Shown: positions 24 to 56,264 of the stretch, in pieces | How positions within the stretch are numbered: the first letter of the stretch is position 1 | Layout of the letters: every line of letters starts with the position of its first letter | Assembly: GCA_000004985.1 (NCBI GenBank) | Contig: GG738854.1 | Reading direction: 5' to 3' (one strand) | Source: Naegleria gruberi | Taxonomy: Eukaryota | Length of the DNA stretch: 64,000 bases | Notes under the pieces: model-generated | What the model was told of the DNA's origin: nothing | Seen by the model: only the letters and a program-made list of their open reading frames with translations | Database searches by the model: none | Made by a program: the position numbers and the translations under genes

Positions 24-2615
24 ATGTTAATTATTACTTTTGTGAAGGTGGTTGACATTTCTGATTGTACTGTTGAAAGATTAGGTTCTCAATGGCTTTA
101 TGTCTCTTCAACAGTTGATATAATTTTGATGCGTTTAATTGTTAATGATTGCAAATTGAAGGGCAATTTAGTCTATCTCACTTCTACAAACAAGGTTTTT
201 ATTAAGAACTCTCTTTTTAAAGACATTACTGGAACTGTGGTTAATATGGCAAATATTGTAACTTTGGAGTTGAAAAATTCGACTTTCCATTCGTGCCATA
301 GTAGAATACACGAATCGATTGTGATACTGAACACTAATGAAGTATTTTCAGCTAGTGCAACTAATGAAAAATCGATTATTTGGGGATCAAGATTTATCAA
401 GTGTTCAGGGTCCAGGGGAGGAGCAATCTTCTTGAGTTCTTTTTATAAGGTTGATATTAACAGGTGTGAATTCATAGCAAATAGTGCACCAAGTGGGAGT
501 GCAATATACTCGGATAGTAGAAGGGGAATGATTTATACAGCTACAGGGCTGGAACCTACCATCTCCATCTTTCATTCACTATTTCAAGAGAATGGAGACC
601 CAACTTTTGGGTCAACATCCTCTGGAGGAGCCATTCACGTTAAGGGAAGCATATATATTGAACAATGTACATTTATTGCCAATTATGCTGTTAAGGGTGG
701 TGTAATTTATATTGACAAATCAGATTCCACCTTTTACTTTAGTCAATACGAACAAAAGTTAGCAGTATTGGTTGCTAGAAGTGAATTTCAGAATAACACA
801 GCAAATTTTGGAGAAATTTCCTTCACTGAACTACCTGATCCATCACTAATCTATTTCAAAACCAATATTGTTGTATTTAATCCAACTTCTCTGGGATCAC
901 CTTGTACCAAGCTAATTATTGATAATACGCAATCTGAACGAGGAAATGTTTACAATGGAACATTAATGGTTTACATGGGAGAGAATGTGAATATAAACAT
1001 GATTGCTTCTAATTTATACGGATACATATTCCCAAAACCATACACAATTATTGGAATTAGGACTCCTGGATCTTCCAAGATATTTGTCAAAACATTAGAT
1101 GATGAAGATCATGTTGAAAATCAAACATTTAACAAATCCTTCTCACTCTATTCACATTATGAAATTTCCTCTCATGAAGATTTGGAGATTTTCATTTCTT
1201 ATGATAAGGTTCATATATCACTCAACTTGATTGTAACACCTTGTCCATTATTCTACAAGTGGGAATCTCCTGTTTGTGTTAATATTTTCTACTTGATTCC
1301 AACTGTTGCTTCAGTCACTTTGTTGACGATAGTTATTGGACTTGTAGCAATTGTTGCTTGTTGTATTGCAAGAAACAAGACAAAGAGATGGAATAGTCGA
1401 AAGAAGGCAGAAAGAATAATGGAACAAGCTCTACTTGATAAAAGAGTTATCTTTGAGGAAGATGAAGAGTCTAGCTCATGTAATTTGAATCGACCTTTCA
1501 TAATCTCAGCAGAAGATATTGTAATTGTAAAGAAAATTGGTGAGGGAGGTGCTGCTAATGTTTTCCTTGCTAAATGGAAAGGTCAAGAAGTTGCCATTAA
1601 AACTCTTAAAGAATGTTTCAGAGGAGACAATGAGGTTTTGGAAACAGAAGCTGCCTTGATTAGTAGTTTCCTTCATCCGAATGTGATTAGATTTTGGGGA
1701 TTTTGTGCCTCATCCTCTCAGAAATACATGGTCATGGAGTATATGAAAGGAGGAAGTTTGGAGAATCTGATTCAGAGTTGTAAAATTGGAAAGGAAAAGT
1801 TGTCCCTCTATGAAAAGCTTCAAATTCTGATTGGGGTAGCTAAAGGAATGGCTTATCTGCATGGCTTGAAACCATGTTGTGTTCACCGTGACTTGAAACC
1901 TGGAAATATTCTGTTGGATGAAAATCGAATCAGTAAGGTTGGAGATTTTGGTTTATCCAGACTCATTTCAAATACCTATCAGACCAGTTTTACAACGAAT
2001 GTGGGTACTTTATTCTATATGGCACCAGAAAACTTTTCTGATAATACCTTCTCTGAAGATTCATTGGGAATGTCTGGTTTTTCACACACAACCTACCAAA
2101 CTACAAATATGACCAACAATACTCATCATTCCATCCAATCATACTATTCAGAGACAGAGTCAGCAGTAGATCAATCGGCAACTATACAAGAATCAGAGAC
2201 CTCTGAGAAGAAACTATTGAATGCTTCAAAGGTTGATGTTTACAGTTATGCAGTGATTATGTGGTCACTCTTCTTTGAGGAAAGTCCTTATGGAAACTAC
2301 AATACTAAGAAGATGAACTTTTTTGGAGATAGTAATGATAACTTTACTAATTGTTACACTGTTTTACCATTGATTCTTCAAGGTAAGAGACCTACAGTAC
2401 CATTTAATTCTGTTGAGAAGATGAAGAGATGGCTTGATGTGTTTGTACTCCCAAAAGAATTAGGAAAGGACAGAGAACATTTATCTAAAATTGTTTTTAG
2501 ATATCTCAACATGATGAAGCTGTGTTGGCATCCACAGCCAGAAGAGCGTCCACCATTTGATCAAATAGTTCCAGAACTGGAAGATTTAGCTGAGCAACTC
2601 CAATACAATAATTGA
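24..2615 (+). CDS. Receptor-like TKL protein kinase with a Pmp-like parallel beta-helix ectodomain, one TM helix and a cytoplasmic kinase domain. Probably 5'-partial, since there is no signal peptide inside the window. Single exon here.
   Basis: Ectodomain repeats: GGAIFLSS, SGSAIYSD, GGAIHVKGS, GGVIYID with F..N spacing. TM: IPTVASVTLLTIVIGLVAIVACCIA. Kinase motifs: GEGGAANVFLAKWKGQEVAIK, HRDLKPGNILLD, DFGLSRL, GTLFYMAPE. Stop is TGA at 2613-2615. Confidence 0.85.
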   Translation: MLIITFVKVVDISDCTVERLGSQWLYVSSTVDIILMRLIVNDCKLKGNLVYLTSTNKVFIKNSLFKDITGTVVNMANIVTLELKNSTFHSCHSRIHESIVILNTNEVFSASATNEKSIIWGSRFIKCSGSRGGAIFLSSFYKVDINRCEFIANSAPSGSAIYSDSRRGMIYTATGLEPTISIFHSLFQENGDPTFGSTSSGGAIHVKGSIYIEQCTFIANYAVKGGVIYIDKSDSTFYFSQYEQKLAVLVARSEFQNNTANFGEISFTELPDPSLIYFKTNIVVFNPTSLGSPCTKLIIDNTQSERGNVYNGTLMVYMGENVNINMIASNLYGYIFPKPYTIIGIRTPGSSKIFVKTLDDEDHVENQTFNKSFSLYSHYEISSHEDLEIFISYDKVHISLNLIVTPCPLFYKWESPVCVNIFYLIPTVASVTLLTIVIGLVAIVACCIARNKTKRWNSRKKAERIMEQALLDKRVIFEEDEESSSCNLNRPFIISAEDIVIVKKIGEGGAANVFLAKWKGQEVAIKTLKECFRGDNEVLETEAALISSFLHPNVIRFWGFCASSSQKYMVMEYMKGGSLENLIQSCKIGKEKLSLYEKLQILIGVAKGMAYLHGLKPCCVHRDLKPGNILLDENRISKVGDFGLSRLISNTYQTSFTTNVGTLFYMAPENFSDNTFSEDSLGMSGFSHTTYQTTNMTNNTHHSIQSYYSETESAVDQSATIQESETSEKKLLNASKVDVYSYAVIMWSLFFEESPYGNYNTKKMNFFGDSNDNFTNCYTVLPLILQGKRPTVPFNSVEKMKRWLDVFVLPKELGKDREHLSKIVFRYLNMMKLCWHPQPEERPPFDQIVPELEDLAEQLQYNN

Positions 2616-2619
2616 CAAC

Positions 2620-5340: not shown

Positions 5341-5425
5341 GCTCATATAGCTCAGTGGTAGAGCATTTGTCTTATGAGAACTTAAGGTTAGCAGATGGCC
5401 GAGGGTTCGACCCCCTCTATGAGCA
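5341..5425 (+). tRNA. Intron-containing tRNA with a canonical cloverleaf. The anticodon loop is CUUAUG|A, giving anticodon UAU, which suggests tRNA-Ile(UAU). Position 37 is G, which is unusual. The intron is about 13 nt, located 3' of position 37.
   Basis: Acceptor stem GCTCATA pairs with TATGAGC, with discriminator A. D arm is GCTC-AGTGGTA-GAGC. Anticodon stem TTTGT/GCAGA has two G-U pairs. T arm is GAGGG-TTCGACC-CCCTC. The variable loop is 5 nt. There are 36 nt between the D arm and T arm where 22-23 are expected, so the extra is an intron. Confidence 0.6.
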
Positions 5426-5781: not shown

Positions 5782-5866
5782 TGCTCATAGAGGGGGTCGA
5801 ACCCTCGGCCATCTGCTAACCTTAAGTTCTCATAAGACAAATGCTCTACCACTGAGCTATATGAGC
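5782..5866 (-). tRNA. Second, identical copy of the intron-containing tRNA (UAU anticodon), convergent with the first copy.
   Basis: This is the exact reverse complement of 5341..5425. It lies inside a perfect inverted repeat of about 140 bp. Confidence 0.6.
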
Positions 5867-12028: not shown

Positions 12029-14281
12029 ATGTTTAGTAACTGCCATCATCATGATGATGCTGAACGTGTAGTAATTATATTGGACGATCATGACAAATTT
12101 ATGGAACAATTATTGAATAGCAAATATAAACAAGAACGAAATTTATCATGCTACAAACAAATATTAAAATATTTAACTAATACGAGAGGTTTAATATTAA
12201 AGTATTATGAATTACCTGTTATATTACGAAGAGATCGGAGATTCATCACTGAAATTGCACAAACTTTTGAATTTTACCAACAATTACCTGAAGAATTTAA
12301 ATCCGATAAACAAGTAATGCTAAATTGTTTTAAAAAGAAAGTATTTAATGGAAGTGATATTAAGAGTGGATATATTCCCTCTAATTTAATGAATGATAGG
12401 AAATTTATATTGGAATTAATTGAAGGAAATCCAACATGTCTCTATTTAGTACCGAAAGAAAGAGAATTCGTGTTGGCAGCAATGAAACACGATATTATAT
12501 ATTTGGGATTTCTCCCAGGAAGTGAAAAGAAGAATGAATCATACATGTGGGAATTGTTTTTGAAAAATTGGGAAAATTTAAGATTTGCAAGTGGTGAATT
12601 ACTAAATAATCCATCATTTGCTATAAAAGTAAGAAAGCATGATACCAATACTTTCAACTATTATTGTGGACGGCCACATTTGGCGGTTCATGCAAGGGAT
12701 AAATTTCGAAATAATAGAGAATATGTGCTTTTTGCTATTTTACATGGAAAAGCTGATTTTACAATGATAAAAAAGGTATTTCAAGCGGATTTGGAAATTA
12801 AAATGGCAAATAATATTAAAACTGATGCCTCCTTATGGAAATTAAAGGAAGAATGGGCAAATGACAAGGAAATGATTTTGAAATATGTCAAACATAATTC
12901 AAATATATTGAAATTTATTAATTTGGAATTACTACAGGATTATGAATTTAATATTAAATTAATTTACAAAAATATTGAAAGTATTCAATTTATTAATGAA
13001 TGCAATACTAATTTTAAACAATTATTTACACAATCAGATAAAACTGAATTAATTTCTAGATATTTAAGCAACAAAAAATTTAACATTAATTCCAAAATTA
13101 TAAATCCAACTAATATTAGAGCATTTGGTTCCAAAATTAATTATATACATTTTATAGAGGAATATTTAAATGAAAACGATTTAATTTATATAACAAGTAA
13201 TATTGATGGACAAGCATGTTACGGTTTGTTAAACGTAATTTCCAATAAGAAAATTTTCAATGAATGCTTACAATTATGGAAAATAACAGTTAAAAAGCAT
13301 TATTCATGTTATGAATTATTTAATATAAAATATACCAAACAAGATATTATTGAGATAATTTCATCCATGCATGAATCTCCTTTTCCATTCCTGGCACACA
13401 TTGATAGAAATGTATTTAGCTCTGAGAGTGAAGTTCTTCTCATTGCAATTCAAACCCATTTCAAGTGCTTTGAATTGGCAAGTAAAGAACTGAAATCTGA
13501 CTTGAATTTTATTAGAAAGTCAGTCAATTTAAATAGAAATATTATTAAAGTAATAGATTTGCAAATTGTACAAGATAATTTGGATTTATTGATTATTTAT
13601 ATAAATTATAAATTAAAAATCAATACCATGTATGGATATCAAAATAGCGCTCATGCATTAAATCCATTAATTAACATATTAGCAAAACATTTACAAAATG
13701 AGGATACAGTTTTACAATTAGTAGAAATACCCCAATTTGTAAATTTATTTTATGGCCATATAGATATTAATTTAAGATCAAGTGAGGAATTCTGTTTAAA
13801 AATATTAAAAACAGATTTGAATAATGCCACTAAAATTCCAAATTTAATTAAATATAGAAATTTCATAATTGAATTTCTAAAAGAGGGAAAATCCATTACA
13901 TTCATTCCTAAAATATTCGAACAGGATGAGGAATTTTTACATTTATTTTTTAAAAACTGGAATCGTACGGAATACCTTCCAATATTACCAGCGGATGAAA
14001 TTTTTATTGGTATTCTAATTAAGGAATTGAAAATTAACCCATCCATATATAGAAATTTTAATAATAGTGATCCGTTGAAACATAATTGGGATATATTATT
14101 GAATGTTGCCAGAGATGTAAATAGCTGTTTAGTTTTTCCCACCACAATATGGCAAGATGAGAATTTTAAATTGGAACTTGTGAAGAGAGGAATTTTTCCA
14201 CCTTCCTTTTTGAAACATTTTAATAGCATTTTGAACGATATGGATTTGATTGTAGAAAATGGTTTTTACTTGATTCAATAA
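12029..14281 (+). CDS. Asn/Ile-rich repeat protein, hypothetical. Degenerate repeats of about 35 aa resemble DUF4116-type repeats.
   Basis: A 750-codon ORF with ATG after aaaaaaaaa. Recurring blocks: DKQVMLNCFKK, EREFVLAAMKHD, NREYVLFAILHG, DKEMILKYVKHNSNILKFI. Confidence 0.45.
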   Translation: MFSNCHHHDDAERVVIILDDHDKFMEQLLNSKYKQERNLSCYKQILKYLTNTRGLILKYYELPVILRRDRRFITEIAQTFEFYQQLPEEFKSDKQVMLNCFKKKVFNGSDIKSGYIPSNLMNDRKFILELIEGNPTCLYLVPKEREFVLAAMKHDIIYLGFLPGSEKKNESYMWELFLKNWENLRFASGELLNNPSFAIKVRKHDTNTFNYYCGRPHLAVHARDKFRNNREYVLFAILHGKADFTMIKKVFQADLEIKMANNIKTDASLWKLKEEWANDKEMILKYVKHNSNILKFINLELLQDYEFNIKLIYKNIESIQFINECNTNFKQLFTQSDKTELISRYLSNKKFNINSKIINPTNIRAFGSKINYIHFIEEYLNENDLIYITSNIDGQACYGLLNVISNKKIFNECLQLWKITVKKHYSCYELFNIKYTKQDIIEIISSMHESPFPFLAHIDRNVFSSESEVLLIAIQTHFKCFELASKELKSDLNFIRKSVNLNRNIIKVIDLQIVQDNLDLLIIYINYKLKINTMYGYQNSAHALNPLINILAKHLQNEDTVLQLVEIPQFVNLFYGHIDINLRSSEEFCLKILKTDLNNATKIPNLIKYRNFIIEFLKEGKSITFIPKIFEQDEEFLHLFFKNWNRTEYLPILPADEIFIGILIKELKINPSIYRNFNNSDPLKHNWDILLNVARDVNSCLVFPTTIWQDENFKLELVKRGIFPPSFLKHFNSILNDMDLIVENGFYLIQ

Positions 14282-33600: not shown

Positions 33601-36600
33601 TCAATGTAACGTGCCAGTATCACTGTTGGAATTTTGGTAATTATTAAAATTATGTAATGATTGGAGAGGAATCAATCGGGGGAGATCATCGATTTTTTGA
33701 CATTGTGATTGTAATTCTTCCAATAAATCAATAATTTCAATAAATTCAGGTCTTTGTGAGGAATCCTGAGCCCAACATCTTTCCATGATTTGAACATATG
33801 ATTCTAAAAATCCAATAATTTCACTTTTTCCAAGATTTTCGATATGTTTCTTTGTAAAATTGTGTTCAATCCACTCATCAATTTGTTTTTCACTGAATGA
33901 TTTTGCATGCAACAGTTCTGGCCTGTGTCCTTTTGCAACTCTCATCAATATTTGGAAAACAGTTGTAGAGTTATCAATTTCATTTGAAAATGGTAATATT
34001 TCATATAATAGCTCCCACATTATTACTCCAAATGAATAAACATCCACTTTTGTGCTTTTACCTTTGTGATTATCTGAAAGTAATTCCTATAAAACAAAGT
34101 TCAACAAATCTATTTTCAATAGATACTTACAGGTGCCTATTGTATTTGTTAATGAATTCACAATAAAATACTTCCAAACTTACCATATAGAGTAAAGTTC
34201 CAACATTTGAGGTCATGGTTGCTGAATTGTTTGAAACAATTTTGCTCAATCCAAAATCTCCAACTTTTGCGTTCATAATCTTGTCCAATAAAATGTTCCC
34301 TGGTTTCAAATCTCTGTAATATTTTTGTTTAGGATAGAGTAAAACTCATAACATACCTGTGAATGATTTTGTGAGGTTTGATAGAATGTAAATATATCAA
34401 TCCTTTGGTGATATCAATCAAAATTTTAAGCTTGGTCTCAAATCTCATAATTTCTCTTCCTATTCTTGAGTTATAAATTGCCTTTTCTAGACTTCCATGT
34501 TCCATATATTCAACAACCATATATTTTCCATTGGTTGTGAGCGAAACTCCATAACAACTGACAATACAGGGATGTCTCAATGAGCTCATTAACATTGCTT
34601 CATTCTCAAACTCCTCATCATTTGAATCAGTTTTCAATTGTTTGATGGCAACATCAGTTCGATTCCACTTGGCATGGTAGATCATGCCCATTGCTCCTTC
34701 ACCAACTCTTTTTAGAATATTAATTTCTGATATTGGAATAATGTATTGTTGTCGTTTTTTTTGTGAATTAAGGATTTCCTTAGTATTAGAAGAATCTATT
34801 CCACTGTTAATACTATTTGAAGATATTAGTGGGGTGAATTCACTCTCAAATATAAATTCATTATCTGTAAACTTCCTTTCAATTTCCTTTTCAGCACGTT
34901 CTTGCTTCCTCAATTTCAACAATTTTCTTGTTATGAATATTCCTGCGTATAAAACTGCTCCAAATATAATTAAGAGTGAAATGAAACCTAATATTGCAGA
35001 GGTTAAAATAATTGCTATTGGAGAATATTCACAAATATAACCATTATCAAGCTTGTTTAAAATATAACTGTTTGGGCATGGAAGTATTTTCACTTTGACA
35101 ATTTTCTCAATGTCTGGAGTTACTATGATTGATAGAGAAAATTCTTTGGATATTTGACTTGGAAATATTTGCAAGCTCACTAATATTGTACGATTGTCAA
35201 ATAGATTATTTTGAGAAACAGTTCCATCTTCAATATTCGTTGGTCGAATAATCAACATATTCGGTTCCATCAATGATGAGGCAGTTTGATTGTAAAGATC
35301 TTTCACTAATACATTCATCTTGAATGATTCTCCAGGGTATATTTCAAGTTCATTGCCATTTTCTGTATTTCTTTCAAATTGAACTTCAACAGTTTGCAAA
35401 GGTGTCGCCACATTATTGCCATAGCATAGAGCATTATTTCCAACTATTATTTCGCCATTAACGGTCAACTGAGAGTAAATGCACCCTCCAGCATAAGCTG
35501 CAAGATTATTTTCACAAATTATATTCTTAATATAGGGAGTTACCGTGTTTATCCACATGGCCCCACCATTTTTTGCCGAGTTGTCATTAAAGGTAGAGTC
35601 AGTAAAACGAATTGAGCCAAATAATTTAGTTGTTTCAACATAAATTGCTCCACCTAAATCAGCAGTGTTTTTGGTAAATTGTGAATTTCCAATGTCTAAA
35701 TCTGTTCCATAAAGATAGAGTGTAGATCCTTTGCTTCCACCTGTATTTTCAATAAATTTACAATTTGTAATGGAAAGTGAATAGGACAACATTGTTTGAT
35801 CAAAAAATTCTAATAAAGCAGTGCCTGTTGTGAGTCTATTTTCAATAAACAAGCTATTGCGTATAAGTATTGCGATAATGCTAATAGAAGGATTATCTGT
35901 AAAGGATAAAAACCTTCCCCTATTATTTGAAACTAGACAGTTATTAATTGTTAAGGAGTCAACCATTTGTAATGAAAGCAACGCATTAGAGGCTGTATTA
36001 TTTTTAAAGGAACTGTTTGAAATTAGTATTCCAGAAATGCCAATCATTTGAAAGAGCATGTAATATTCAGTGTTTTCAATAGTTACTCCATTCAATTCAA
36101 TATTATCCAATGATATGAATAAAGCATTTGATAATACAGTAGAATTGATAATTGAAACTCTATTTCCAAGATTGAATTTCGAGATGGTCAGTAAGGAGCT
36201 TAATTTTGAGGTCCAAATAGAATTACCAATAGTAAATGTCTCAAAATTATCCATGTGAAAAACTCCATTAATTCTGCAATTATTAAATAGAACTGTTTTA
36301 GAATTTTTCAAATTAATAATTACTTCCATATTAGTGTTGAAAACGAATAGGTTTAATACTCCCACAATACTGAAATAATAATAAAAATTACAATCAATAA
36401 TCTCCAATTTTCGAATTTCCGAATGCATGACGACTGCATCTCTTGTTGTGCAATTTAACAATTTGAAATGTTCAATTCCATTATATAGTAAGAATTCCCC
36501 ACCAATGAATCCAAACTCTATTGTAAATGCATCAATAATTGCGTATGCCTGTAAATTGCCACGAGTAGTGAACAATTGCTTGTCCTTTCCTTTCCATATC

Positions 36601-37040
36601 ATTTCGAATCGATTTGCGTATTTGGAAAAATCGAAATTTGTTTCATAGCTTCGCATAAGTCCATTAATTACAATCACCATTGTGAAATTATCCAATTTTT
36701 TACCTTGATTAATTATTTCTGCCAATTCATTGTTTGCTGCTTTTACAATTTGACTCGGAGAGGAACATGGTTGATGCTCATCCCTACACGTTGCATTCAA
36801 ATCATCAACATTAGGAAATTCAGAATCTAAATAATAAATAGCTGAATATGATGATGAATTAATTGTATTGTTGGCCATTACATATTGATGATGCTCTTGT
36901 TCTTGTGGTTGGAGTACTACTACTAATTCATTATTAGCTAATATCGACTCGGACTTTGTTATTATCATCATTATCATCATCATAATAATTAAAAGCCTAA
37001 TAAATCTAAGAACCTCCGAAGAGGTGGTTATCTTGTGCAT
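33601..37040 (-). CDS. Receptor-like TKL kinase with a Pmp-like beta-helix ectodomain. Exons: 37040..34357, 34313..34184, probable 6-nt micro-exon 34136..34131, and 34086..33601.
   Basis: Signal peptide MHKITTSSEVLRFIRLLIIMMMIMMIITKS. Ectodomain repeats: GGAIYVET, GGAMWINT, GGCIYSQ. TM: IAIILTSAILGFISLLIIFGAVLYAGIFI. Kinase: VGEGAMGMIYHAKW...VAIK, HR|DLKPGNILLD (intron 34314..34356, 43 nt), DFGLSKI, GTLLYM|AP|ELL, DVYSFGVIMWE. Confidence 0.8.
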
Positions 37041-40339: not shown

Positions 40340-43300
40340 TTAATTCATAAGAATGGAAGAACACTTATTGAGCTTGTCACAAATTTCTGCAAATGAAGGT
40401 CTTTCAACGTCCTTGTCCCAACATTTTGTCATTATTTCACACAACTCTTTCACAACAAGGGCAAGCTTCATCTCTGAATTACGAGAAGATCCAAAAATTC
40501 CTCCCTTCTCATTTTCCATCAAAAAGGAATTGACATATTCCTTCAATAAAGGATCCAATTGTTGATATCTTCTTGAAGATGAACTAATGTGATCACTGCC
40601 AGTACCTTGGAAGGAGAAATTCTTCTTGATTCTAAATGGAATTATTGGTCTCAATCCATTCACAATCTCTGTTGTAATTGAAATCATGTTAAAGTTAGGC
40701 AAGGTAATAGAATCAATTTGCTCAATATCAATGTTTGATTTCACGAGAGGAGAGTCATTTCTAAGTGGTTCCTTTTCCAATTCCACATCATCAATATTAC
40801 TATCTTCATCCAAATTAATTGGTTCGTAAGGTTTCACATTAATAAGATTCTTGTGCTTGACCATAAAATTCTTCATGGCTTCAAAACTTTCGGGACTGTA
40901 GGCACGTTCTTCAAAGAGCAATTCCCACATGATAATACCAAATGAGTAACTGTCACACTTTTCTGAATAGTCCTGACCTAAAATGAGCTCTGGAGGCATG
41001 TAAACTGGTGTGCCGATGGCTGATGTGAGTACACTTGCAGAGTCTTGAGTAAATTCTCTTCCTAATCCAAAATCACAAATCTTGGCAACATTATTTTCAG
41101 AGATGAGAATATTTTCAGGTTTGAGATCTCTGTGAATCAATGGTGGATCTAAACTATGCAAATATTTCATACCATACGCAACATCTAACAAGTAATTGAG
41201 CTTTGTTGCCAGGTTGAGTGGGGTCTTTTTCTTTTTCGAGTCGTGAATCTTCTTTCTCAATGTACCTCCACTCAAATATTCAATGACAATGAACCGATCA
41301 CTTGGTGTAATTGCAATTCCATAGAAAGTAACAATATTTGGGAATCTGAGAGTACTGAGAATATAAGCTTCCTTTTCAAAAGTAGAGTTGATTGTGTCTG
41401 TTTCTGCTTGATTGTCTTCATCATATTGAGTAATGTCAATATTAATTCTCTTGACAGCTACAGTGTTATTCATCCATTTAGCTAAAAATATTACTGATTC
41501 ACCACCTTGGCCAATTCTTTCAACAATTTGCAGGTCTTCAGGTTTGATAATCCAACTCTTATCTTGATTGAAGGAGCTATTTCCTGCTGTATCATCGTGC
41601 AAACTGTGTTTGGAAGAAATAAGTTGATATTGGAGTAATCTCTTGTGTAAATCTTCTTCTGCTTGTTCTCTCTTCTTTAATTCTTTGAGTTTCTTTTTGA
41701 AGAAGTACAAACATAATGTGGTTAATAAAATGATAAAGGTCAAACCAAGGGCAACAATAACACCGAGTGAAATGAGTAATGCATTTTGAACTGCTGAATT
41801 GAAAATACATGCCTGATCATCTACACTGTAATCAAAACTGAAAGGACAATTTGGTTCAAGGTTGACTGGGAAGTAAAATTGTTGAATAACATTCTTACAT
41901 TTAAAGTAAAGAATTAAGGTTTGATTGAGTTGTCCTTTCACTTGTACGTTACTGAAAATAGCTGTATCATTTGAGAAGGTTGTAGAAACGTGATTCTTGT
42001 AGTCTTCTGTGTTGTTAATATTAGTTGTGAAAACCAAATCAATATCTGCATTCTTGATGCTTTCCATTCTTTCATTGAACAAGTCAAACGAATCCAAGGT
42101 TATTTTCACAAATTGACCTGCATATAAATTAAAACCAGTGTACTTTTTCAAGAGAAGAGACTTGAATATACTAAGAGGAAAATCGTACGGAGTATCCTTT
42201 GGTTCCCATCCATTACTAGAAAGAGCAAAATACTTTGGATCAGAGGCATAATTGTCTCCATAAAGTTCAGCATAATTATCGTCAAAAAAAGCAGTCTTGA
42301 ATTGGCTGGCAATACGCATACTGGTTGTTCCTACGAGAAATACAGCACCTCCAGAGTTTTCTGCTCTATTGTGAAGGAAATTAATATTGCTAAATTGGAA
42401 TTTTGAATTTGGATAATCAATGTTATACAAGTACATTGCTCCACCATTGTCTGCCTTGTTATAGCTCAGAGTGATATTAGAAACTGTAGTAGAAACAGAT
42501 GAAGGAGTGAAGAGAATTGCACCTCCCATTCCTTCTTTCACTGGATTGTGGACAATTCTATTGTACTGAAATAAGGAATCTTGGATATTCAAATTAGTTA
42601 AACCATAGGCAAATACAGCACCTCCTCCTGGAGCTTGCTCAGAGTAGGCCTCTTCAGGTTTGTAAATAATTACATTTTGACTAAATTTAGAACTTCTCAC
42701 ATCCAATAAATCTCCTCTCGACACGTAAATTGCAGAACCACGAATACTGGCAACATTACCTTCAAAAGAGGAATCCTTCAAAATGAGCGAACTCCTTCTC
42801 TCTCCATAAATACCGCCAGCTCTTCCTTGTCGTGCTAGTCCATAGTTGAAGCTACTTCTCTCCACAAATGAGTATGTACTTGATTTGAGATAGAGAGCAC
42901 CTCCATATCCATCACAGGTACTGTTAAATAGAGTTGAATCGTTCAGGAAAAATTTTCCCTTCTCAATAAAAATAGCTCCTCCATCGTACTTGGAATAACA
43001 TTTAGAGAATGTGGAATAGGTAATACTTGAATAAGGAATATCCAAATACAAACATCCACCAGAATCTTGACTTGTTGCTGTTTCGAATTTTGAAGTTGTA
43101 ATTGATACAGATCCACTCTCAGAAGTGACATAGATAAAACCACCAAATGAAGAGAGGGCAGTATTGTAACCATCAGAAAATGTGGAGCGTACCAATGTGA
43201 AAACTCTATCAGTAACTCGTTCGCTTTGATCTGAAATGTAGATTGATCCTCCATGTCTCAAAGCAGTATTTCCCTTAAAATTACAACGTAAAACACTCAA

Positions 43301-44928
43301 CTTCAATGTGTTTGAATTAATGGCTGCTCCAAACTGGGCACTATTATTAATAAACTGTGAATCAATAACCTTCAAACTGTCTGATGCTATCTCTGAAAAT
43401 TGTTGCAAGTCCAAATAACGAACTGCAGATGCACTGCTCGTTCCCTCAAAAACACATCCAATAATGGATCCATTCCTCACATTTTGTAAGAAGAGAGCTC
43501 CACCATCATTGTCCAAAAATTTTGTACCAACCACAGATGTAGCTTGTGAATCAGCAATAGCAAGAACAGGTAACGTGCCCATATTACTATTTTCCATAAA
43601 GGCAGAGTTTGCAACCAACACAATGTAATAATTTTGAATGGAAACAAAGTGACAGGTTGTGTAACTGAATTGAACATTGGTAATAAAAGCACTAGTACCT
43701 GTCAATGACTCACTACTCTTAACTTGTAAACTTCCAGTAGCATTAAAGTTGGTATCAGAGATTTTAACTTTGGAACACGTTGCACAAGTCATGGCACCAA
43801 CACTGTAACACTGACTTCCAGTGCAATTTGTTGCAAAATTGCTCTTCTCAATTGTGAACTGTCTAGCTGTGTGTCCAAAGATGAAATAGTGTTTTGGTGA
43901 TGTGGATGTGCACTTTTGAGTTGAGGCACCAAGATCTTTACTTTCATCCAAACCAATTGTTACATAACTGGATGCAACATTGAGTGTAAAGGAAACATTT
44001 CTGAATAAAGCTTCACAATTATTATCCAATTCAAAATCAATATATGATTCAGATGGTCCTAAATTCCTCACCACTTGCAAATTTTCATAAAAACAAGTGC
44101 CACCTGAACATTCAACATAAGAATCGACCAGTTTAGAATTTCTAATGACAATATCTGGTTGCCAAGTTGCCGAAAACACATCAAACATTCGATTCAACTT
44201 GTTCATCTCCACCTCTTCAAATATAACTCTTGTTGTGTAAATACTCGAAACATAATCATTCTCTACTGCAATCACAGCATTAACATCCCAATTTACAAAG
44301 GCAATATTGGTGAATGATATTTCCATTTTGAAAGGATTGATTCGTATAAAGGGAGAATAATCAGCACATGAAATGAAAGTCTTTGACAATCCATAAAAGT
44401 TGGCAATAATCTTGCTTTGGATAGCCTCTGAATTGTTATAGTATGGCAAGTCAATTGCACAATTATTACTACCATCACTCACATCTATATTATTCAATAA
44501 ATAAATATTTAATTCTTGTTCTTCCGCTATTATTACATGATAATAATTATAATAGTATTATTAGTATTAATTTACATATGATGATGATTATTATTAATTT
44601 ACATGATGATCATTAATTTACATTGAAAATCAACAAAATTACTATTCGCATATATAAAAACAAACTACCTACCTGTACTAGTCGTATTGAACAGCACACT
44701 CCACCTCTCCAGTACATATTTTAGTGAGTTACATGGCTGAGAAGGGGTAGAACAGGGAAAGAAGTTATTGTTACTGCTGCTACTAGCCTTCGGATCAATG
44801 TAGACACTACTCATTATCTTGGCAATTGTGGTGTTGATGGTCAAAATGTTGAGAAACGATAGCACCACGAGGATAGAAATCAATCGCCACACCTCATGAT
44901 CCCTTCGGGTCATCATTGAATGTCTCAT
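40340..44928 (-). CDS. Receptor-like TKL kinase of about 1460 aa with a Pmp-like beta-helix ectodomain. Exons: 44928..44673 (signal-peptide exon) and 44484..40340.
   Basis: Exon 1: MRHSMMTRRDHEVWRLISILVVLSFLNILTI...NTTST. The 188-nt intron is 44485..44672 (GTAGGT...ATATAG). Ectodomain repeats: GGALFLQNVRNGS, HGGSIYISD, DGGAIFIEKG, YGGALYLKSS, GGGAVFAYG, GGAILFTPS, NGGAMYLYN, SGGAVFLVG. TM: ALLISLGVIVALGLTFIILLTTLCLYFF. Kinase: IGQGGESVIFLAKW...VAVK, HRDLKPENILIS, DFGLGREF, GTPVYMPPE. Confidence 0.85.
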
Positions 44929-46313: not shown

Positions 46314-46371
46314 CAATGCCAATTTTGTAGGTTGCCATAAATCCAATAAAATTCATGGAATTAAAGAAATT

Positions 46372-48678: not shown

Positions 48679-50863
48679 TTATTTCTTCTTTGGTATTTCA
48701 CCATTAGATGAGGAAGTTCTCTTTCTCTTCTTTTCATAGGTTGAGTTATTCGTTTCAGTAGTGCTTAGTTTTGATTCATTTTTTTCTGGATTGGAAACAG
48801 TATCACGTATGGAAGGAAAGAAATATGATCTGTAATCTTGTGTATCGACTATATCTGTAATGCCAAGTAATGCCAAGCATTCTCTTGTGGTAGGTCTTTT
48901 CTTTCTTTCTATGGCCACCATTTGTTTAAGCATGTCAAATAGCATACTACCCTTATTGGGCTCTAGCTCGTGGCATTTGATTGAAATTGTTTGCCATATT
49001 TCATCAGCAGTATTTTCCAACCGTTTCTTATCTATATCATTTTCTAATATCAATTCAATAAAAACTAAACCAAGAGAGTAGATATCAGTTTTTGGATGAA
49101 TAAAGTTTTTCCCTGTGGATTCCTTTTCAGGAGCATTGTAAGAAGAGGTTCCAGCAGTTGACTGTATCCACAAGTTTACGAATTTGCAAGTATCTCCATC
49201 TTCAATGTCAAAACGCTTGGCTAGTTCAAAATCAATGAATTTACAAAAAACGTTTGGGCCTTTTTTTTGGTCGACATTTGTTTCCTTAATAACTGTCGAT
49301 TTTAAATGATCCTCTTCTAATATTATAATATTACTAGGTTTAATGTCATTGTGTATTATCTTTCTTGAGTGAATGTGGTCAATTTCAAGCAGCAGTTGAG
49401 AAATAATGTGCAATTTTTCTTGGTGTGATCGTTTGTTAACAGTATTGAGCTCGGTTCCTGCAATTGATATCTCGATATGTTCTTTACAAACTACATCATT
49501 CACAGTTACTCTGTCATGAAGAAGAAATATATTTCCAATATCAATCCATTCTGGTTTTTCCGAAAGGAAAATCTTTACAAACACTGGTTGAGAGGAATGA
49601 TCAAGCACACCATAGAACATGTCTTTGGTAGCAGTACCTCTTCCTTGACCAGTACTTATCTCGAAAAGATACTCCTGAAGTGTGATAGTTGTTGTAAGCA
49701 CTGTGTCTAATGATGTCGTGAGATGAATCACCAACTTATCACCCTGTGAAATATCAGATCCACTTTCAATAGAACTTTCCATTCTCTTTCTTCCCATAGA
49801 CTCTTTGGTAATTGTGTCGATAAGAATGTTCTCTTCAAAATTAGCTTGTCTACTTGCCTCTAGTAAGAATGAAATAAATGTGTCAAGTAATTGTTTCTCC
49901 TCTGTCGTTGAAGGGTCAAGTGGAAACATCCCAACATTAAATAATTGATATTTGTATCTTTTCTTGATACGTGAAGTTTGTGGAACAAAAGCTTTAATTC
50001 CCAGCACACGAATAAACCTCTTCTCTGTCAGTAATCCATAAGTAACCAGTTTGTCGATTTGGATTGCATGTTTTTCAGAGGGCTTTATGTTTTTAAGTAA
50101 GGTGCCATGAACCATTCTTATTAGAGCCACTACCTTCAAGAAATCAGGGTGAGCAGTCTCGAAGTCTACCTTGTCCTCATGCCCAAACTTTAGACGATTG
50201 AAAGGAACGTCTTTCTCATTCTTTAATTCTAATCCGGAAAAATTATCAGGTGAAATAGTGCCCTGCAGTAAGTTTGCTACTTCCTTGCTGAGATATCTCG
50301 AGTTTTTTATCAAATTGCTGATAGAAACATTTCTAAATTGTTCTGAGCTCTATAATGTTTGGTTAAAAAACTTACTCATTAATTTTGAAGCCGTAGAGAG
50401 TAGGTAGTTGTAATAGTTTGTGGTATTTGGTGTTATTGGTATGAAACATTTCCTCTCCCAAAGAATGCATTTTGGTTGGGTGTAAGCAATCGGATAAAAG
50501 TTGAAAAGCTGCACTCAAATCTATCAAGTTGAAAACATCGACAACATGCCCAAATTTTTCAATGACCAAACGATAATGTGTGGAAATGGCTTCATTGTCC
50601 TGTTTGAGATTGTCAATGAGGCAGAACAATTGTTCTATGAAATTTCGAAAGTCGGTTATCACAGATACTTTTTGTATTGCAGCATGGAGGTTGTGATCCA
50701 AATGATGATGACGATCTGAAAGCCAAGTTACTTGCAATAAATCCTCTGCAATACAGAGTTTGTGGTTGAATTCTTCGGAGCCTTCTCTCCAGATATCTTT
50801 GCGAAGATCGAGGTTCTTTTTCTTGTGGAGTTCCTCAAGCTTTTCATCAAAGGATTTTGTCAT
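48679..50863 (-). CDS. Divergent cytoplasmic protein kinase with a non-kinase N-terminal region of about 400 aa. Two exons: 50863..50376 and 50332..48679.
   Basis: The 43-nt intron 50333..50375 (GTAAGT...AATTTAG) joins ...LYGFKINE to NVSISNLIKNSRYL in frame. The kinase core is atypical: HNDIKPSNIIIL (HND not HRD), DFELAKRF (DFE not DFG), SYNAPE. There is no clear GxGxxG. ATG after aaaaaaaa. An E2F-like site lies about 20 bp upstream. Confidence 0.6.
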
Positions 50864-50883
50864 TTTTTTTATCAGGCAATTTA

Positions 50884-52537: not shown

Positions 52538-52712
52538 TTATACCAGTTTACAATATAAACTCAACTCTGATTCTACTCTTGGTGTTGTTCCAATCAATTA
52601 AGAATAAGGGAACAGAGAACATCAGTTGTTTTTTGAGTTTTTGATATTCGAAAGATCAAATACTTTAGATATCTAAAGGAATAGACTTAAATGCAAATGA
52701 TAGAAGACGGAT

Positions 52713-55700
52713 TTACATGAAAAGTGGGCTATCATCACATAATCTGGCAATTTCATACAAATGTTGGATAATTTCCTCAAAGCTTGGTCTTTCATTTGGG
52801 AGCTGATGCCAACACTGTTGCACTAGTTTGATATACTTGGAAACACCTTCAACAAATAGATTGCTGTTCTCATTATTGATTGGTTGAATAAATAATCTTG
52901 TCCATTCCTTCAATTGTTCATCATTTGAGAAGGGAATGTTTGGTCTTTTTCCTCTCACTATCTGGGTAATAACTGTTAGACTGTTACAATCTGACATCTC
53001 TGTAAAATAGTTCATCTTTTTGTGATTGTGAGTCGTATAAGGAACTTCTTCAAAAAAGAGTGACCACATAATAATTCCAAACGAATAGACATCAATCTTG
53101 GATGCATTCTTGATTCTTTCCTCTTTTGATAAGGAAGATCCTCCAAATGTACCTGATCCAATTGATGAATTACTATTCATATTTGAATTGGAATAATGGA
53201 TGGAGTCGGTAGCGTTTGAGAATCCAGAGAACTGTTCATTTTCAAAAAGCTCAGAATTATTAGAAACTCCAGAATCAAAATTCTCTGGAAATATTTGTTT
53301 AACACAGTGAAACTAGAATAAAACTTACCTGGAGGGCAATATAGAAGTGTACCAATGTTCAATGTCATACTAGTTTCAAACATGTTATTTCCAACAATTC
53401 TTGAAAGTCCAAAATCACAAATCTTTACACAATTTTTATCATCAAGAAGTACGTTTGCAATTTGAATGCCAGAATTCAATAAATTGTAATATAAATTACA
53501 TACCTGGTTTCAAATCACGATGACAAATCATATTTGGTTTAAGTGAATGCAAATAGGACATTCCTCTACTCACTCCCATCAAAATATCCAATTTCTGTTT
53601 CATAGTCAACTTTTGGCGACCAACTTTGCATTCACTGATTAGTTTTTCCAAACTACCTCCTTTCATGAATTCAATCACCATATATTTCTGGTTCTTGTTT
53701 GGAACACAAAAACCGTACATTGTAACTATTTCATCTTAAGTTATTTGAAACATAGGGGAATATTACATACCAATATTAGGATGTCTCAAACTAATTAAAA
53801 GTGCTCCTTCTCGTTCAAAAACATCTTCGTCATCTTGGTCCTTGATTGATTTAATTGCTACTTCAATTCCTTTCCATAATCCTTGATAAATCATTGATTG
53901 ACCTCCTTCTCCAATACGTTTCTGAATTGTAATATCCTCGGTTGGAATAATAAATGACGCCTTACTGTTAGGTCTATCCTCAGACTCTTCGAAAATAATC
54001 TTCTTATCAAGTAATACCCTTTCCATTTCAGATTCAGCTCTGGTTCGTTTTCTCAGTAGCTTTGATTTGTATCTAGCAACACAAAGTCCAATTAATCCAA
54101 TACAAGTGGTAATCAATGTCACTGCTGCTAAGCTTGTGACTAGAGGGAGAATGTAAAAAATGTTCACACAACCTGGTGCCTCATATCTATAGAAAGAAGG
54201 GCAAGAATCGAGAATAATATCCACCGTATAAGTTACTCTCTCATAGGTTACTGAAAGCTGCACACTTCTTGCTTCCTTGACTTCAGAATTTGAATACAAG
54301 CTAAAAGGCAGCCTGAAATCAGTATTGTTTGAGGAATCTGTCTTTAAAAACAGACTAGAATCACTAACTTGAAGAGTAATTGGAACCTTAGGTGTTTCAA
54401 TTAATCTTCCAAAAATGTTTCTTGCCTCAATCTCAATAATAAATTTTTGCCCCAAATAGGCTTTTTGAGTACCATTATAAACCGTGTGAGGATTGACATC
54501 AAGCTCAATAACTTTGTACTCAAATTCAAAACAAGGAGAGGAAATAGAGTCGTCATTGTCATAATAGTATTCTTCATTGATATAAATGGACCTATTACTG
54601 AGCACTTCTGAGTATCCAATTTTTCCATATTTTGCAGTGTTTGCATAAAAGACATTACTTGGAGTAATCGTGACCCGTATCTCTTTTGGTGCTTCCCCAA
54701 AGAAAATTACACCTCCCTTCTTTGCTATGTTTCGTTCAAAGTAACTTGTACTTATTTCAGAACTTCCTGTTACATAGAGTGCACCTCCTATGGTGTTTTC
54801 ATTTCCATTTCCAATAAATTTCGAGCCATCCACAGATAACACGTTTATATCGTATTTCGCACGAGACCTATATTCATAAAATATCGCTGAGCCCTTTGGA
54901 GCAACGTTATTGTAAAACTCACAATTCTTGACATGAAAAATAGCACTTGATTCAATATAAATTGATGATGTAGTGCAATTTAAAAATCTGGAATTTTGCA
55001 CAGTAGAAGATTTTTCGAAATAGTCATTGGATGGAATAATAGTATCATACGAAATTACATAATATATTGCTCCATTATAAGCATTTGGTTTCACATTAAT
55101 AAATTCTGAATGATCAACAAGGAAATAATGAATATCTTGCATGTGTAAACAAGTTGCAGAAATGTTGTTACATGACAGGTTTGTAATTTGTAACTCTTTG
55201 CATGTACTGATAAATATCATACTGCCTTGTGTGTTACTGTCATAGACTCTAACATTGTCAATCACTAGTTTGACGATAGAGGATACAAATAGCCAATTGG
55301 TTCCCATTGAAATGTTACTGTTAGTTATGTATGCGTCAATGGAATATCCAATATATAATACAGGATATCCTATTGCAAACGTTCCAATATAATCAATATT
55401 GTCAATAATTATTTCATTAGATTCAATGATTGAAAGTATAGAATCATCTCCAGTATCACACTCAAGTATTTTAACATCATCTACCCTTTCAATGAAGAGT
55501 TTGGCTTTCAGAGCAGAGTTTGTAATTTGCAAAATTCTTGAATTTCCTATAAAAGTATCCCCTCTGATTGTCACATGATCAAGCTCAATAATATCATAGT
55601 TAGCCATTCTCAAGTTTGTATCTGATATATCAACTTGTTGAAATATTGATACAGTTCCTTTTCTTGGTGAAAGAACCATTTGATTATTATATGTAAATTC

Positions 55701-56264
55701 ACCAAATTTCAAAAGTGATGCACTGAATTTACAATTTGTAAATGTTGCTTTGGGTGCACTCGTCAACGACATAGCAACATTGGTAAATCCAATATCTTGT
55801 GCCTCCACTGAAATGATGTTATTTTGATCAGTAAGAAGAGTTTGCCTTCCAACATGACAAACAATTGAGGCCATACCAGAATTCAATCCATTCTCAAATC
55901 TAACTCGATAACTAAAACCAGTTCTCTTATAAAAAGAAGGAACCTGACATTGATTCTCTGCTTGAATCCTAAAAACCACCGAGATAATAGTCTCTCCAAA
56001 CATCATTGTTTTTACCATATTATTCAAATGATTAACAGCACTACTCATATAATTACACAAATACTTTCCAGCACCTCCGGTACATGATGAACTAAATATC
56101 GAACTGATTGTATACTGATAACTCCTTTCCGAAACTCCAAGTACCAAATTATTATTTTCATTAATTATATTAGTACACAATAAAACAACAATGATCATCA
56201 AGTAATAAATTATTCTTGATGAACCCGAAGCGACTCTCCTTCTTGTATTCGTCATCACCATCAT
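52713..56264 (-). CDS. Receptor-like TKL kinase with a Pmp-like beta-helix ectodomain. Exons: 56264..53771, 53725..53504, about 53457..53329, and 53285..52713. The exon 2 to exon 3 junction is non-canonical.
   Basis: Signal anchor MMVMTNTRRRVASGSSRIIYYLMIIVVLLCTNII. Ectodomain repeats: NGAIYYVIS, KGSAIFYEY, GGALYVTGS, KGGVIFFGE. TM: LPLVTSLAAVTLITTCIGLIGLCVA. Kinase: IGEGGQSMIYQGLWKGIEVAIK, HPNI|VTMYGFC (45-nt intron 53726..53770), HRDLKP|ANVLLDD, DFGLSRI, LLYCPPG|ENF (43-nt intron 53286..53328), DVYSFGIIMW. Confidence 0.7.

What the first reader, a model, noticed from the sequence alone, without database searches (positions are those of the whole stretch)
24..56264. Dispersed family of four receptor kinases with chlamydial-Pmp-like beta-helix ectodomains
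Four non-tandem genes share one architecture: 24..2615 (+), 33601..37040 (-), 40340..44928 (-) and 52713..56264 (-). Each has a signal peptide, then 400-900 aa of degenerate GGA[IVLM][YF]/FxxN repeats (parallel beta-helix, polymorphic-membrane-protein type), then a single TM helix, then a TKL-type kinase (HRDLKPxNIL, DFGL). The ectodomains are highly divergent while the kinase cores are conserved, which suggests a rapidly evolving surface-sensing or recognition family. Intron positions differ between members: two are intronless in the kinase domain, and two are split at HR|DL, KP|xN and the APE site. Four members in 64 kb implies a large genomic expansion. It is the nearest thing to a 'system' in this window.
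Basis: partly seen in the sequence, partly recalled or inferred. Interest (0 to 1): 0.75.

Follow-up and report, generated by a model that had tools for sequence, protein, structure and literature searches.

The report
Naegleria receptor kinases with beta-helix ectodomains
Four genes in this stretch of the amoeba Naegleria gruberi encode membrane receptor kinases whose outer part is a bacterial-adhesin-like beta-helix, a sensor design I found in databases but in no paper I could search.

Summary
The window is Naegleria gruberi DNA: two of the four genes match RefSeq proteins at 100% identity, XP_002680386.1 and XP_002680385.1.

All four genes encode the same single-pass protein. It has an N-terminal hydrophobic leader, a right-handed parallel beta-helix ectodomain, and a family-specific stalk of about 170 aa ending in CPxx[YF]...C. 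Then come one TM helix, a conserved juxtamembrane motif and a TKL-group kinase with every catalytic motif intact.

- **Pmp-type repeats:** They are real but few, 2-5 FxxN/GGA-type pairs per protein against about 0.05 expected. Curated Pmp models pass only for genes 3 and 1. A profile built from all four retrieves strong Chlam_PMP proteins.
- **Not chlamydial Pmps:** There is no middle domain and no autotransporter barrel.

- Gene 1 is cut by the window edge, so no signal peptide is visible.
- Gene 2's APE site holds a 6-nt microexon.
- Gene 4's second intron lacks an AG acceptor, so it may be a pseudogene.

"Rapid evolution" and "large expansion" remain untested. The paralogs are old: ectodomains 27-29% identical, kinases 45-51%. 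Relatives occur in Willaertia, N. lovaniensis and environmental contigs. Verdict: an undescribed variant of protist receptor kinases, of moderate interest.

The parts
1..2615 (+). g1: receptor kinase gene, 5'-truncated by the window edge. The ORF listed from ATG 24 is open to base 3. It covers 423 aa of ectodomain, the TM and the kinase in a single exon.
   Evidence: No identical or near-identical protein came back from the protein collection.
411..719 (+). g1 zone of Pmp-type FxxN / G[GS]x[ILV] rungs (aa 130-232)
   Evidence: Chlam_PMP scores 20.6 bits, exactly at the cut-off. TIGR01376 scores 16.8 against a cut-off of 15.
789..1292 (+). g1 membrane-proximal stalk, ending in CPLFY...C
   Evidence: alignment A1
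1293..1379 (+). g1 TM helix (aa 424-452)
1521..2588 (+). g1 TKL kinase domain with a low-complexity insert after APE; it has VAIK, HRDLKPGN, DFG and APE
33601..37040 (-). g2: complete gene of 4 exons, 1101 aa. It corresponds to XP_002680385.1 / D2V6W1 (NAEGRDRAFT_64576), whose annotated model starts at an internal Met, my aa 417.
36951..37040 (-). g2 signal-peptide-like leader, MHKITTSSEVLRFIRLLIIMMMIMMIITKS
   Evidence: hydrophobicity only; no signal-peptide predictor was available
35466..35756 (-). g2 Pmp-type rung zone (aa 429-525)
   Evidence: Chlam_PMP scores 16.3 bits, below the cut-off.
35025..35459 (-). g2 stalk, from YGNNVATPLQT to CPNSY...C
34926..35024 (-). g2 TM helix
34131..34136 (-). 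g2 6-nt microexon GCACCT (Ala-Pro of the APE motif). The flanking introns are 34137-34183 and 34087-34130. A further intron at 34314-34356 splits HR|D.
   Evidence: The RefSeq protein contains the same YMAPELL junction.
40340..44928 (-). g3: complete gene of 2 exons, 1480 aa, with a 146-nt intron at 44527-44672. It corresponds to XP_002680386.1 / D2V6W5, annotated from an internal Met (1328 aa) and so lacking the leader.
42284..43600 (-). g3 Pmp-type rung zone (aa 395-833), with 7 GGA[ILVM] and 17 FxxN in the whole ectodomain
41786..42280 (-). g3 stalk; the fold is unresolved, with pLDDT below 50
41696..41785 (-). g3 TM helix
40358..41530 (-). g3 kinase domain with inserts; it has VAVK, HRDLKPEN, DFG and PPE
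52713..56264 (-). g4: gene of 4 exons, 1138 aa, and the closest paralog of g1. Its introns are 53726-53770, 53458-53503 and 53285-53328.
53458..53503 (-). g4 intron 2, GTATGT...AAATTG. It has no AG acceptor, and retaining it gives KPGM-stop. It is either a non-canonical splice or a disabling mutation.
54630..54917 (-). g4 Pmp-type rung zone (aa 450-545), with 3 motif pairs
54072..54152 (-). g4 TM helix
52746..53930 (-). g4 kinase domain; it has VAIK, HRDLKPAN, DFG and PPE

Best explanation
These are four old paralogs of a heterolobosean family of type I, single-pass receptor Ser/Thr kinases of the TKL group.

From outside to inside, each protein has:
- a cleavable or anchoring leader;
- a long right-handed parallel beta-helix, whose C-terminal rungs carry the FxxN / GGA[ILV] signature of Pmp-type repeats;
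- a family-specific stalk of about 170 aa that opens with a conserved Gly (YG in g2-g4 and Willaertia, FG in g1; followed by A[ST] in g2, g3 and Willaertia) and ends in CPxx[YF]...C;
- one TM helix;
- a basic stop-transfer stretch and a conserved juxtamembrane motif, AExxMExxLLDK+xIFE;
- an active-looking kinase.

**Likely mechanism (inferred).** The extended beta-helix face binds a polymeric or repetitive extracellular ligand. The most plausible ligand is a glycan or surface polymer of bacterial prey, of the substratum or of other amoebae. Ligand-driven clustering would bring the kinase domains together for trans-phosphorylation of their Ser/Thr-rich activation loops. That would start a cytoplasmic response such as feeding, motility, adhesion or differentiation.

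**Shown here:** gene structures, topology features, fold, repeat type, intact catalytic motifs, common descent of the whole architecture, and presence in other Heterolobosea.

**Inferred:** surface location, ligand class and activation by clustering.
For: **Architecture and topology**
- Ectodomain, TM and kinase lie in one ORF.
- There is a single TM with 7-8 K/R just after it.

**Kinase**
- Pfam scores the two single-ORF kinase domains (g1, g3) at 157-167 bits.
- All catalytic motifs are present.
- The nearest solved kinases are CTR1, TAK1, RIPK and MLT.

**Fold**
- The AF2 models have confident all-beta cores.
- All top Foldseek hits are beta-helices.

**Repeat type**
- Motif pairs are far above shuffle expectation.
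- Chlam_PMP and TIGR01376 pass their cut-offs for g3 and g1.
- The family profile retrieves strong PF02415 proteins.
- It also retrieves, as the only solved structure, Rhombotarget A.

**Common descent**
- Residues in the stalk (C, P), the juxtamembrane (A, E, I) and the kinase are invariant across the four genes plus Willaertia.
- The kinase domains group together in a neighbour-joining tree.

**Relatives with the same architecture**
- Willaertia magna KAL9648292.1 has PF13229, PF02415 and a kinase.
- Environmental protein P0309 has rungs, stalk, TM, juxtamembrane motif and kinase.
- A Naegleria lovaniensis fragment carries the juxtamembrane motif.
Against: - There are no expression, localisation or binding data.
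- Signal peptides were judged by hydrophobicity only.
- g1's N-terminus is outside the window.
- g2 and g4 fail the curated Pmp cut-offs.
- AF2 mean pLDDT is only 56-59, and the stalk and N-terminal thirds are unreliable.
- g4's intron 2 lacks an AG acceptor, so g4 may be non-functional.
- The beta-helix fold is also typical of polysaccharide lyases and hydrolases, so a catalytic ectodomain is not excluded.
Confidence: 0.8

Rival explanations
1. They are adhesion molecules first and signalling molecules second. The beta-helix would act as an adhesin, as in chlamydial and trichomonad Pmps, PfbA or EtpA. The kinase would merely report or regulate attachment and phagocytosis, rather than sense a soluble or diffusible cue.
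For: - Structural neighbours include the adhesins PfbA, Vag8 and EtpA.
- Pmp repeats mediate adhesion in Chlamydia, and trichomonad Pmps raise adherence (PMC2997323 abstract as listed; PMC6701047).
Against: - Nothing in the sequence separates adhesion from sensing.
- The kinase and juxtamembrane region are the best-conserved parts, which argues that signalling output is central.
Confidence: 0.3
2. The ectodomain is an enzyme, such as a polysaccharide lyase, hydrolase or epimerase, tethered to the membrane. The kinase would be regulated by substrate turnover.
Against: - No enzyme family scores in Pfam or NCBIfam for any ectodomain.
- Sequence identity to the enzymes is 8-14%.
- The only sequence-level relatives are non-enzymatic Pmp-repeat proteins and Rhombotarget A.
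Confidence: 0.08
3. One or more members are decaying pseudogenes. The apparent 'family in a cluster' would then be a relic rather than a working system.
For: - g4 intron 2 has no AG acceptor, and retaining it truncates the kinase after KPG.
- g1 returned no annotated protein.
- The RefSeq models of g2 and g3 are N-terminally truncated.
Against: - All four keep long open frames of 860-1385 codons without internal stops.
- All catalytic motifs are intact.
- Six of the seven introns are canonical.
- The GT...TG junction restores exactly HRDLKPANVLLDD.
Confidence: 0.15

Closest known systems
Trichomonad Pmp-like surface proteins (TvPmp; Handrich et al. 2019, PMC6701047)
   Same: They are eukaryotic proteins with N-terminal FxxN / GGA[ILV] repeats. 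The chlamydial middle and autotransporter domains are replaced by a short conserved motif after the repeats (ATPITK) and a single C-terminal TM. g2 has VATPLQT at the equivalent place.
   Different: Trichomonad proteins end in a short cytoplasmic tail with endocytic motifs. The Naegleria proteins instead carry a 400-450 aa cytoplasmic part with a TKL kinase. I could not align a Trichomonas sequence here, so the ATP-motif resemblance is a lead only.
Chlamydial polymorphic membrane proteins (Pmp; PF02415 repeats, type Va autotransporters; PMC10715098, PMC11166332)
   Same: The FxxN and GGA[ILV] tetrapeptides are paired within the rungs of a predicted beta-helix. Both are surface-exposed.
   Different: The Naegleria proteins have no Pmp middle domain and no autotransporter beta-barrel. 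They have far fewer canonical motifs (2-7). They are anchored by an alpha-helical TM in a eukaryotic membrane and are coupled to a kinase.
Entamoeba histolytica transmembrane kinases (EhTMKs; PMC2880585) and other protist TMKs (PMC10463195)
   Same: They are families of single-pass receptor kinases in an amoeboid protist, with a variable ectodomain on a conserved Ser/Thr/Tyr-type kinase. Individual members are often truncated or poorly annotated.
   Different: EhTMK ectodomains are Cys-rich (CXXC/CXC-type) by my recollection, not beta-helices. In the cross-kingdom TMK survey, word searches found neither Naegleria nor any Pmp, beta-helix or pectin-lyase domain.
Plant receptor-like kinases (RLK/Pelle) and Raf-like TKL kinases such as CTR1
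   Same: They share the TKL-group kinase fold. CTR1 is the best solved match. The overall logic is also the same: ectodomain, then TM, then juxtamembrane, then kinase.
   Different: The window kinases group apart from plant RLKs in a crude neighbour-joining tree. To my knowledge no plant RLK uses a parallel beta-helix ectodomain.
Rhombotarget A (RbtA, TIGR04212; PDB 9cdu/9cdv)
   Different: It is a bacterial secreted or anchored protein with no kinase, and the similarity is limited to about 85 residues.

Membership tests
Eukaryotic protein kinase, TKL group | Pfam protein kinase domain above its cut-off | tested here: met
   For the ORFs scanned, PF07714/PF00069 score 82-167 bits for g1-g3. 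g4's first exon holds only the start of the domain, and PF07714 scores 20.0 bits there, below the 23.1 cut-off. The spliced g4 kinase was not rescanned; it aligns to g1's kinase at E=8e-107.
Eukaryotic protein kinase, TKL group | Catalytic residues: VAIK Lys, HRD Asp, the Asn of KPxN, DFG Asp and the APE motif | tested here: met
   All are present in all four spliced proteins. HRDLKPxN is the Ser/Thr-type catalytic loop.
Eukaryotic protein kinase, TKL group | Closest characterised kinases belong to the TKL group | tested here: met
   The g2 kinase best matches CTR1 (6e-41), TAK1, RIPK4/2, MLT/ZAK and B-Raf. Formal kinome-HMM classification was not run.
Type I single-pass receptor kinase | N-terminal signal peptide | tested here: inconclusive
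   g2, g3 and g4 start with a basic stretch followed by 15-20 hydrophobic residues. No predictor was available. g1's N-terminus is outside the window.
Type I single-pass receptor kinase | Exactly one TM helix between ectodomain and kinase, with the cytoplasmic side positive | tested here: met
   There is one 19-mer hydrophobic peak per protein beyond the leader. The 18 residues after it contain 7-8 K/R.
Type I single-pass receptor kinase | Plasma-membrane location and ligand-dependent activation | not testable with these tools
   This needs tagging and biochemistry.
Right-handed parallel beta-helix (pectin-lyase-like fold) | Three-dimensional fold match to solved beta-helices | tested here: met
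Pmp-type repeat proteins (Pfam PF02415 / TIGR01376) | Curated repeat model at or above its cut-off | tested here: inconclusive
   PF02415 scores 28.3 for g3 (pass), 20.6 for g1 (exactly at the cut-off), 16.3 for g2 (fail) and nothing for g4. TIGR01376 scores 16.8 for g1 and 16.4 for g3 (both pass), 13.8 for g2 (fail) and nothing for g4.
Pmp-type repeat proteins (Pfam PF02415 / TIGR01376) | Repeated paired FxxN and GGA[ILV] tetrapeptides | tested here: met
   There are 2-5 pairs per ectodomain against 0.02-0.08 in shuffles. The family profile recovers proteins that score 128-307 bits on PF02415.
Chlamydial Pmp autotransporters (the family proper) | Pmp middle domain and a C-terminal autotransporter beta-barrel (PF03797) | tested here: not met
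   No such Pfam hit appears in any of the four genes at E<=0.1. The C-terminal part is stalk, then TM, then kinase.
Trichomonad Pmp-like surface proteins | Pmp repeats, then an ATPITK-type motif, then a TM, then a short tail with endocytic motifs | tested here: not met
   The repeats and TM are present, and g2 has VATPLQT after the repeats. The tail, however, is a 400-450 aa kinase-bearing region. No Trichomonas sequence was aligned.

The most novel reading that the evidence does not exclude
Heterolobosean amoebae independently invented a class of pattern-recognition receptor kinases. They would have done so by fusing a bacterial-type Pmp beta-helix adhesin module to a TKL kinase. The module might have come by horizontal transfer from amoeba-associated bacteria such as Chlamydiae. 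The resulting family would let Naegleria discriminate bacterial prey, surfaces or kin, a Discoba counterpart of plant RLKs and Entamoeba TMKs built on an ectodomain fold not used by any described receptor kinase.
Probability: 0.25. Interest if true: 0.65.

Novelty: new variant of a known kind. Interest (0 to 1): 0.45.

Why it matters
Receptor kinases are thought to have arisen several times, by joining a conserved kinase to lineage-specific sensor domains. The known protist examples come mainly from Amoebozoa, oomycetes, algae and holozoans.

A Discoba family built on a Pmp-type beta-helix would add an independent origin and a new ectodomain fold to that picture. It would also give a concrete handle on an open question: how free-living Naegleria, and by extension the pathogen N. 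fowleri, senses bacteria, surfaces or host tissue.

It also shows that the public gene models for two of the four members (g2, g3) are N-terminally truncated and a third (g1) returned no annotated protein. That hides their receptor nature from automated surveys.

Tried and rejected
1. **Counting the family genome-wide.** None of these routes gave a count.
   - The exhaustive profile search returned 83,190 hits. Its top 150 were giant Pmp-repeat proteins that matched only the repeat part of the profile.
   - The word-indexed searches were swamped by low-complexity or generic kinase hits. They even missed sequences that were in the query alignment.
   - No collection here holds the N. gruberi genome, and the AlphaFold-database libraries were unavailable.
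2. **dN/dS of ectodomain against kinase.** This was rejected as not computable. The closest pairs are 27-29% and 45-51% identical at protein level, which is far beyond synonymous saturation.
3. **Looking up the genomic context of XP_002680386.1.** It is not on record.
4. **Literature.** Ten full-text searches turned up no paper that links Naegleria or Heterolobosea to Pmp repeats or to receptor kinases of this type, and none that cites the two accessions. The terms covered Naegleria with Pmp, polymorphic membrane, receptor kinase, TKL, kinome, beta-helix, Acrasis and the accession numbers. The 2010 genome paper is not held.
5. **A possible analog outside Heterolobosea.** The MMETSP transcript P0010 has GGA-type repeats, a TM and a kinase. 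Its ectodomain gives only a weak profile match (hhalign probability 16%, E 0.0016) and no Pfam beta-helix hit, so I do not count it.
6. **A fifth member in the window.** None was found by tblastn.
7. **N-glycosylation sequon density as a topology test.** It is uninformative in this Asn-rich proteome.
Full report
**Source and context**

The window is AT-rich (GC about 0.34) and gene-dense, with short GT...AG introns. The g3 ectodomain is 100% identical to NCBI XP_002680386.1 / EFC47642.1 / D2V6W5, 'serine/threonine protein kinase [Naegleria gruberi]', which lies on a 665,159-bp contig. g2 is 100% identical to XP_002680385.1 / D2V6W1 (NAEGRDRAFT_64576). The window is therefore N. gruberi NEG-M nuclear DNA. 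Neighbouring genes fit that origin: DUF4116, RWP-RK, RCC1, phospholipase B and an NHL/EGF surface protein.

**Gene models**

- g1 is one ORF, 24-2615 (+). Its frame is open to base 3, and it aligns to g4 only from g4 residue 320. About 300 N-terminal residues, including any leader, therefore lie outside the window.
- g2 has three introns. One splits HR|D. The other two flank a 6-nt microexon, GCACCT, that supplies the Ala-Pro of APE. The RefSeq protein contains the same YMAPELL junction.
- g3 has one 146-nt intron after a first exon that encodes a leader.
- g4 has three introns, at NI|V, KP|AN and PP|E. The second reads GTATGT...AAATTG and has no AG before the next exon. Splicing there restores HRDLKPANVLLDD exactly. 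Retention gives a stop after KPG.
- The RefSeq models of g2 and g3 begin at internal methionines, my residues 417 and 153. They lack the leader and, for g2, 416 aa of ectodomain.
- g1 gave no identical or near-identical protein in the collection.

**Architecture**

- Each protein has one strongly hydrophobic segment between ectodomain and kinase. It is followed by 7-8 Lys/Arg in 18 residues, which is type I topology.
- g2-g4 begin with basic-then-hydrophobic leaders.
- All four keep VA[IV]K, HRDLKPxN, DFG and [AP]PE.
- Pfam kinase scores reach 167 bits.
- The nearest solved kinases are CTR1, TAK1, RIPK2/4, MLT/ZAK and B-Raf, which places them in the TKL group.
- g1, g3 and g4 carry low-complexity inserts after APE.
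- Ectodomain, TM and kinase N-lobe always lie in one exon, so the combination is not an annotation artefact.

**Ectodomain fold**

| Gene | Model | Mean pLDDT | pTM | Confident region (pLDDT) |
|---|---|---|---|---|
| g3 | aa 87-999 | 58.8 | 0.60 | about 370 residues (70-96) |
| g4 | aa 40-705 | 56.1 | 0.60 | about 260 residues (70-93) |

- In both models the confident region is all short beta-strands.
- Foldseek E-values were weak (best 2.7e-3), but nearly all top hits were right-handed beta-helices.
- The fold is thus confirmed, including for g4, the member that fails the Pmp sequence models.
- The N-terminal thirds and the stalk are low-confidence, so their folds are unresolved.

**Repeat type**

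| Gene | PF02415 bits (cut-off 20.6) | TIGR01376 bits (cut-off 15) | FxxN...G[GS]x[ILVM] pairs |
|---|---|---|---|
| g1 | 20.6 | 16.8 | 3 |
| g2 | 16.3 | 13.8 | 2 |
| g3 | 28.3 | 16.4 | 5 |
| g4 | no hit | no hit | 3 |

- g4 scores 25.0 on PF13229 (Beta_helix) against a cut-off of 25.9.
- The motif pairs compare with 0.02-0.08 expected from shuffles.
- The pairs are confined to about 100 aa in g1, g2 and g4 and about 440 aa in g3.
- A profile of the rung-plus-stalk regions of the four genes and the Willaertia homolog found 83,190 proteins at E<=1e-3 among 1.84 billion representatives. The matches fall on the rung part of the profile.
- Four sampled hits from that search (P0079, P0104, P0112, P0137) score 128-307 bits on PF02415. 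P0033, a hit, scores 139 bits.
- Rhombotarget A is the only solved structure hit by sequence.
- The rungs are therefore Pmp-type. Nothing resembling the Pmp middle domain or the autotransporter barrel is present.

**Family-specific parts**

- After the last rung, all members share a conserved Gly (YG in g2-g4 and Willaertia, FG in g1; A[ST] follows in g2, g3 and Willaertia), then a segment of about 170 aa with a conserved G..F.I....D.F pattern, then CPxx[YF]...C directly before the TM.
- After the TM they share AExxMExxLLDK+xIFE and FIIPxEDIxIxKxIGEGG.
- Only Willaertia magna KAL9648292.1 and g3's own RefSeq entry matched the whole rung-plus-stalk profile.
- An environmental protein, P0309 (801 aa), has rungs, stalk, TM, juxtamembrane motif and kinase.
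- A Naegleria lovaniensis fragment carries the juxtamembrane motif.
- In a neighbour-joining tree without support values, the four kinases cluster with these relatives. They sit apart from plant RLKs, Raf-like kinases and animal TKLs, and apart from the other kinase in the window.
- The whole architecture is therefore inherited, not assembled four times.

**Divergence**

| Pair | Ectodomain | Kinase |
|---|---|---|
| g1-g4 | 29% over 415 aa (E 7e-49) | 45% |
| g2-P0309 | 27% | 51% |
| Other pairs | E 1e-3 to 5e-8 | 27-50% |

They show ancient paralogs, not a recent burst. The faster ectodomain is what any receptor kinase shows. The closest pair, g1 and g4, lies 50 kb apart on opposite strands. 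g2 and g3 are 3.3 kb apart, with an LRR gene between them. Four members in 56 kb suggests old local duplication, but the genome-wide size of the family could not be measured.

**Interpretation**

The best reading is a family of type I TKL receptor kinases with a Pmp-type beta-helix sensor. Beta-helix surfaces typically bind extended polymers, as in glycan-active enzymes, phage tailspikes and bacterial adhesins. I therefore infer that the ligand is a repetitive surface polymer of prey bacteria, substratum or other cells, and that activation is by clustering. None of that is shown here. Three rivals remain open:
- an adhesion-first role;
- an enzymatic ectodomain, for which there is no sequence support;
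- partial pseudogenisation, raised by g4's acceptor site.

**Comparison with known systems**

- The closest described relatives of the ectodomain in eukaryotes are the trichomonad Pmp-like proteins. These also replaced the autotransporter with a short motif and a TM, but they end in a short endocytic tail.
- The closest analogs in logic are the Entamoeba TMKs and the plant RLKs.
- Word searches of the 2023 cross-kingdom survey of transmembrane kinases found neither Naegleria nor any Pmp, beta-helix or pectin-lyase domain.
- Ten literature searches found no description of this family.
- The genes themselves have been public since 2010, and automated Pfam tagging already marks g3 with PF02415.
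- I therefore rate it as a new variant of a known kind, of moderate interest.

Noticed in passing
window 34131-34136 (-): A 6-nt microexon (GCACCT, Ala-Pro) sits between introns of 47 and 44 nt inside the kinase APE motif of g2. The RefSeq protein has the same junction.
   Followed up: yes
window 53458-53503 (-): g4 intron 2 begins GTATGT but ends ...AAATTG, with no AG acceptor. It could be a non-canonical splice, an assembly error or a disabling mutation. Retention truncates the kinase.
   Followed up: partly
window 33601-37040 (-) and 40340-44928 (-): The RefSeq models XP_002680385.1 (685 aa) and XP_002680386.1 (1328 aa) start at internal Met codons. They omit the leader peptides and 416 aa and 152 aa of ectodomain respectively, although for g2 the missing part is in the same open frame.
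   Followed up: yes
window 1-2615 (+): g1 gave no identical or near-identical protein in the 5.8-billion-cluster collection. It may be unannotated in the public N. gruberi gene set. Its 5' end lies beyond the window.
   Followed up: partly
window 5341-5425 (+) and 5782-5866 (-): Two identical 85-nt tRNA genes sit in inverted orientation 356 nt apart. Each scores 61.4 bits on Rfam tRNA, and the perfect inverted repeat extends 35 nt outward and 18 nt inward. ARAGORN could not assign the anticodon. The loop reads CTTATGA followed by extra bases, so this is probably an intron-containing tRNA-Ile(UAU).
   Followed up: partly
window 17504-21535 (+): This 1343-aa ORF has a leader, many NHL repeats (teneurin-like), an EGF-like domain and a C-terminal TM at aa 1308-1340. 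It is another large type I surface protein, 12 kb from g2.
   Followed up: partly
window 12029-14281 (+): This 750-aa ORF has several DUF4116 repeats and lies in the most AT-rich part of the window (GC 0.26 for 12-14 kb).
   Followed up: no
window 48679-50313 (-): A fifth kinase ORF (544 aa) has only the C-terminal two-thirds of a kinase domain in the ORF. It is unrelated to the receptor family and is the outgroup in the neighbour-joining tree. Upstream exons are likely.
   Followed up: partly
window 37915-39213 (+): A leucine-rich-repeat protein gene (432 aa) lies on the opposite strand between g2 and g3.
   Followed up: no
protein P0010 (MMETSP transcript, not in the window): A marine-eukaryote transcript shows GGA-type repeats, one TM and a TKL-like kinase. 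It might be an analogous architecture outside Heterolobosea, but the profile match is weak (hhalign probability 16%).
   Followed up: partly
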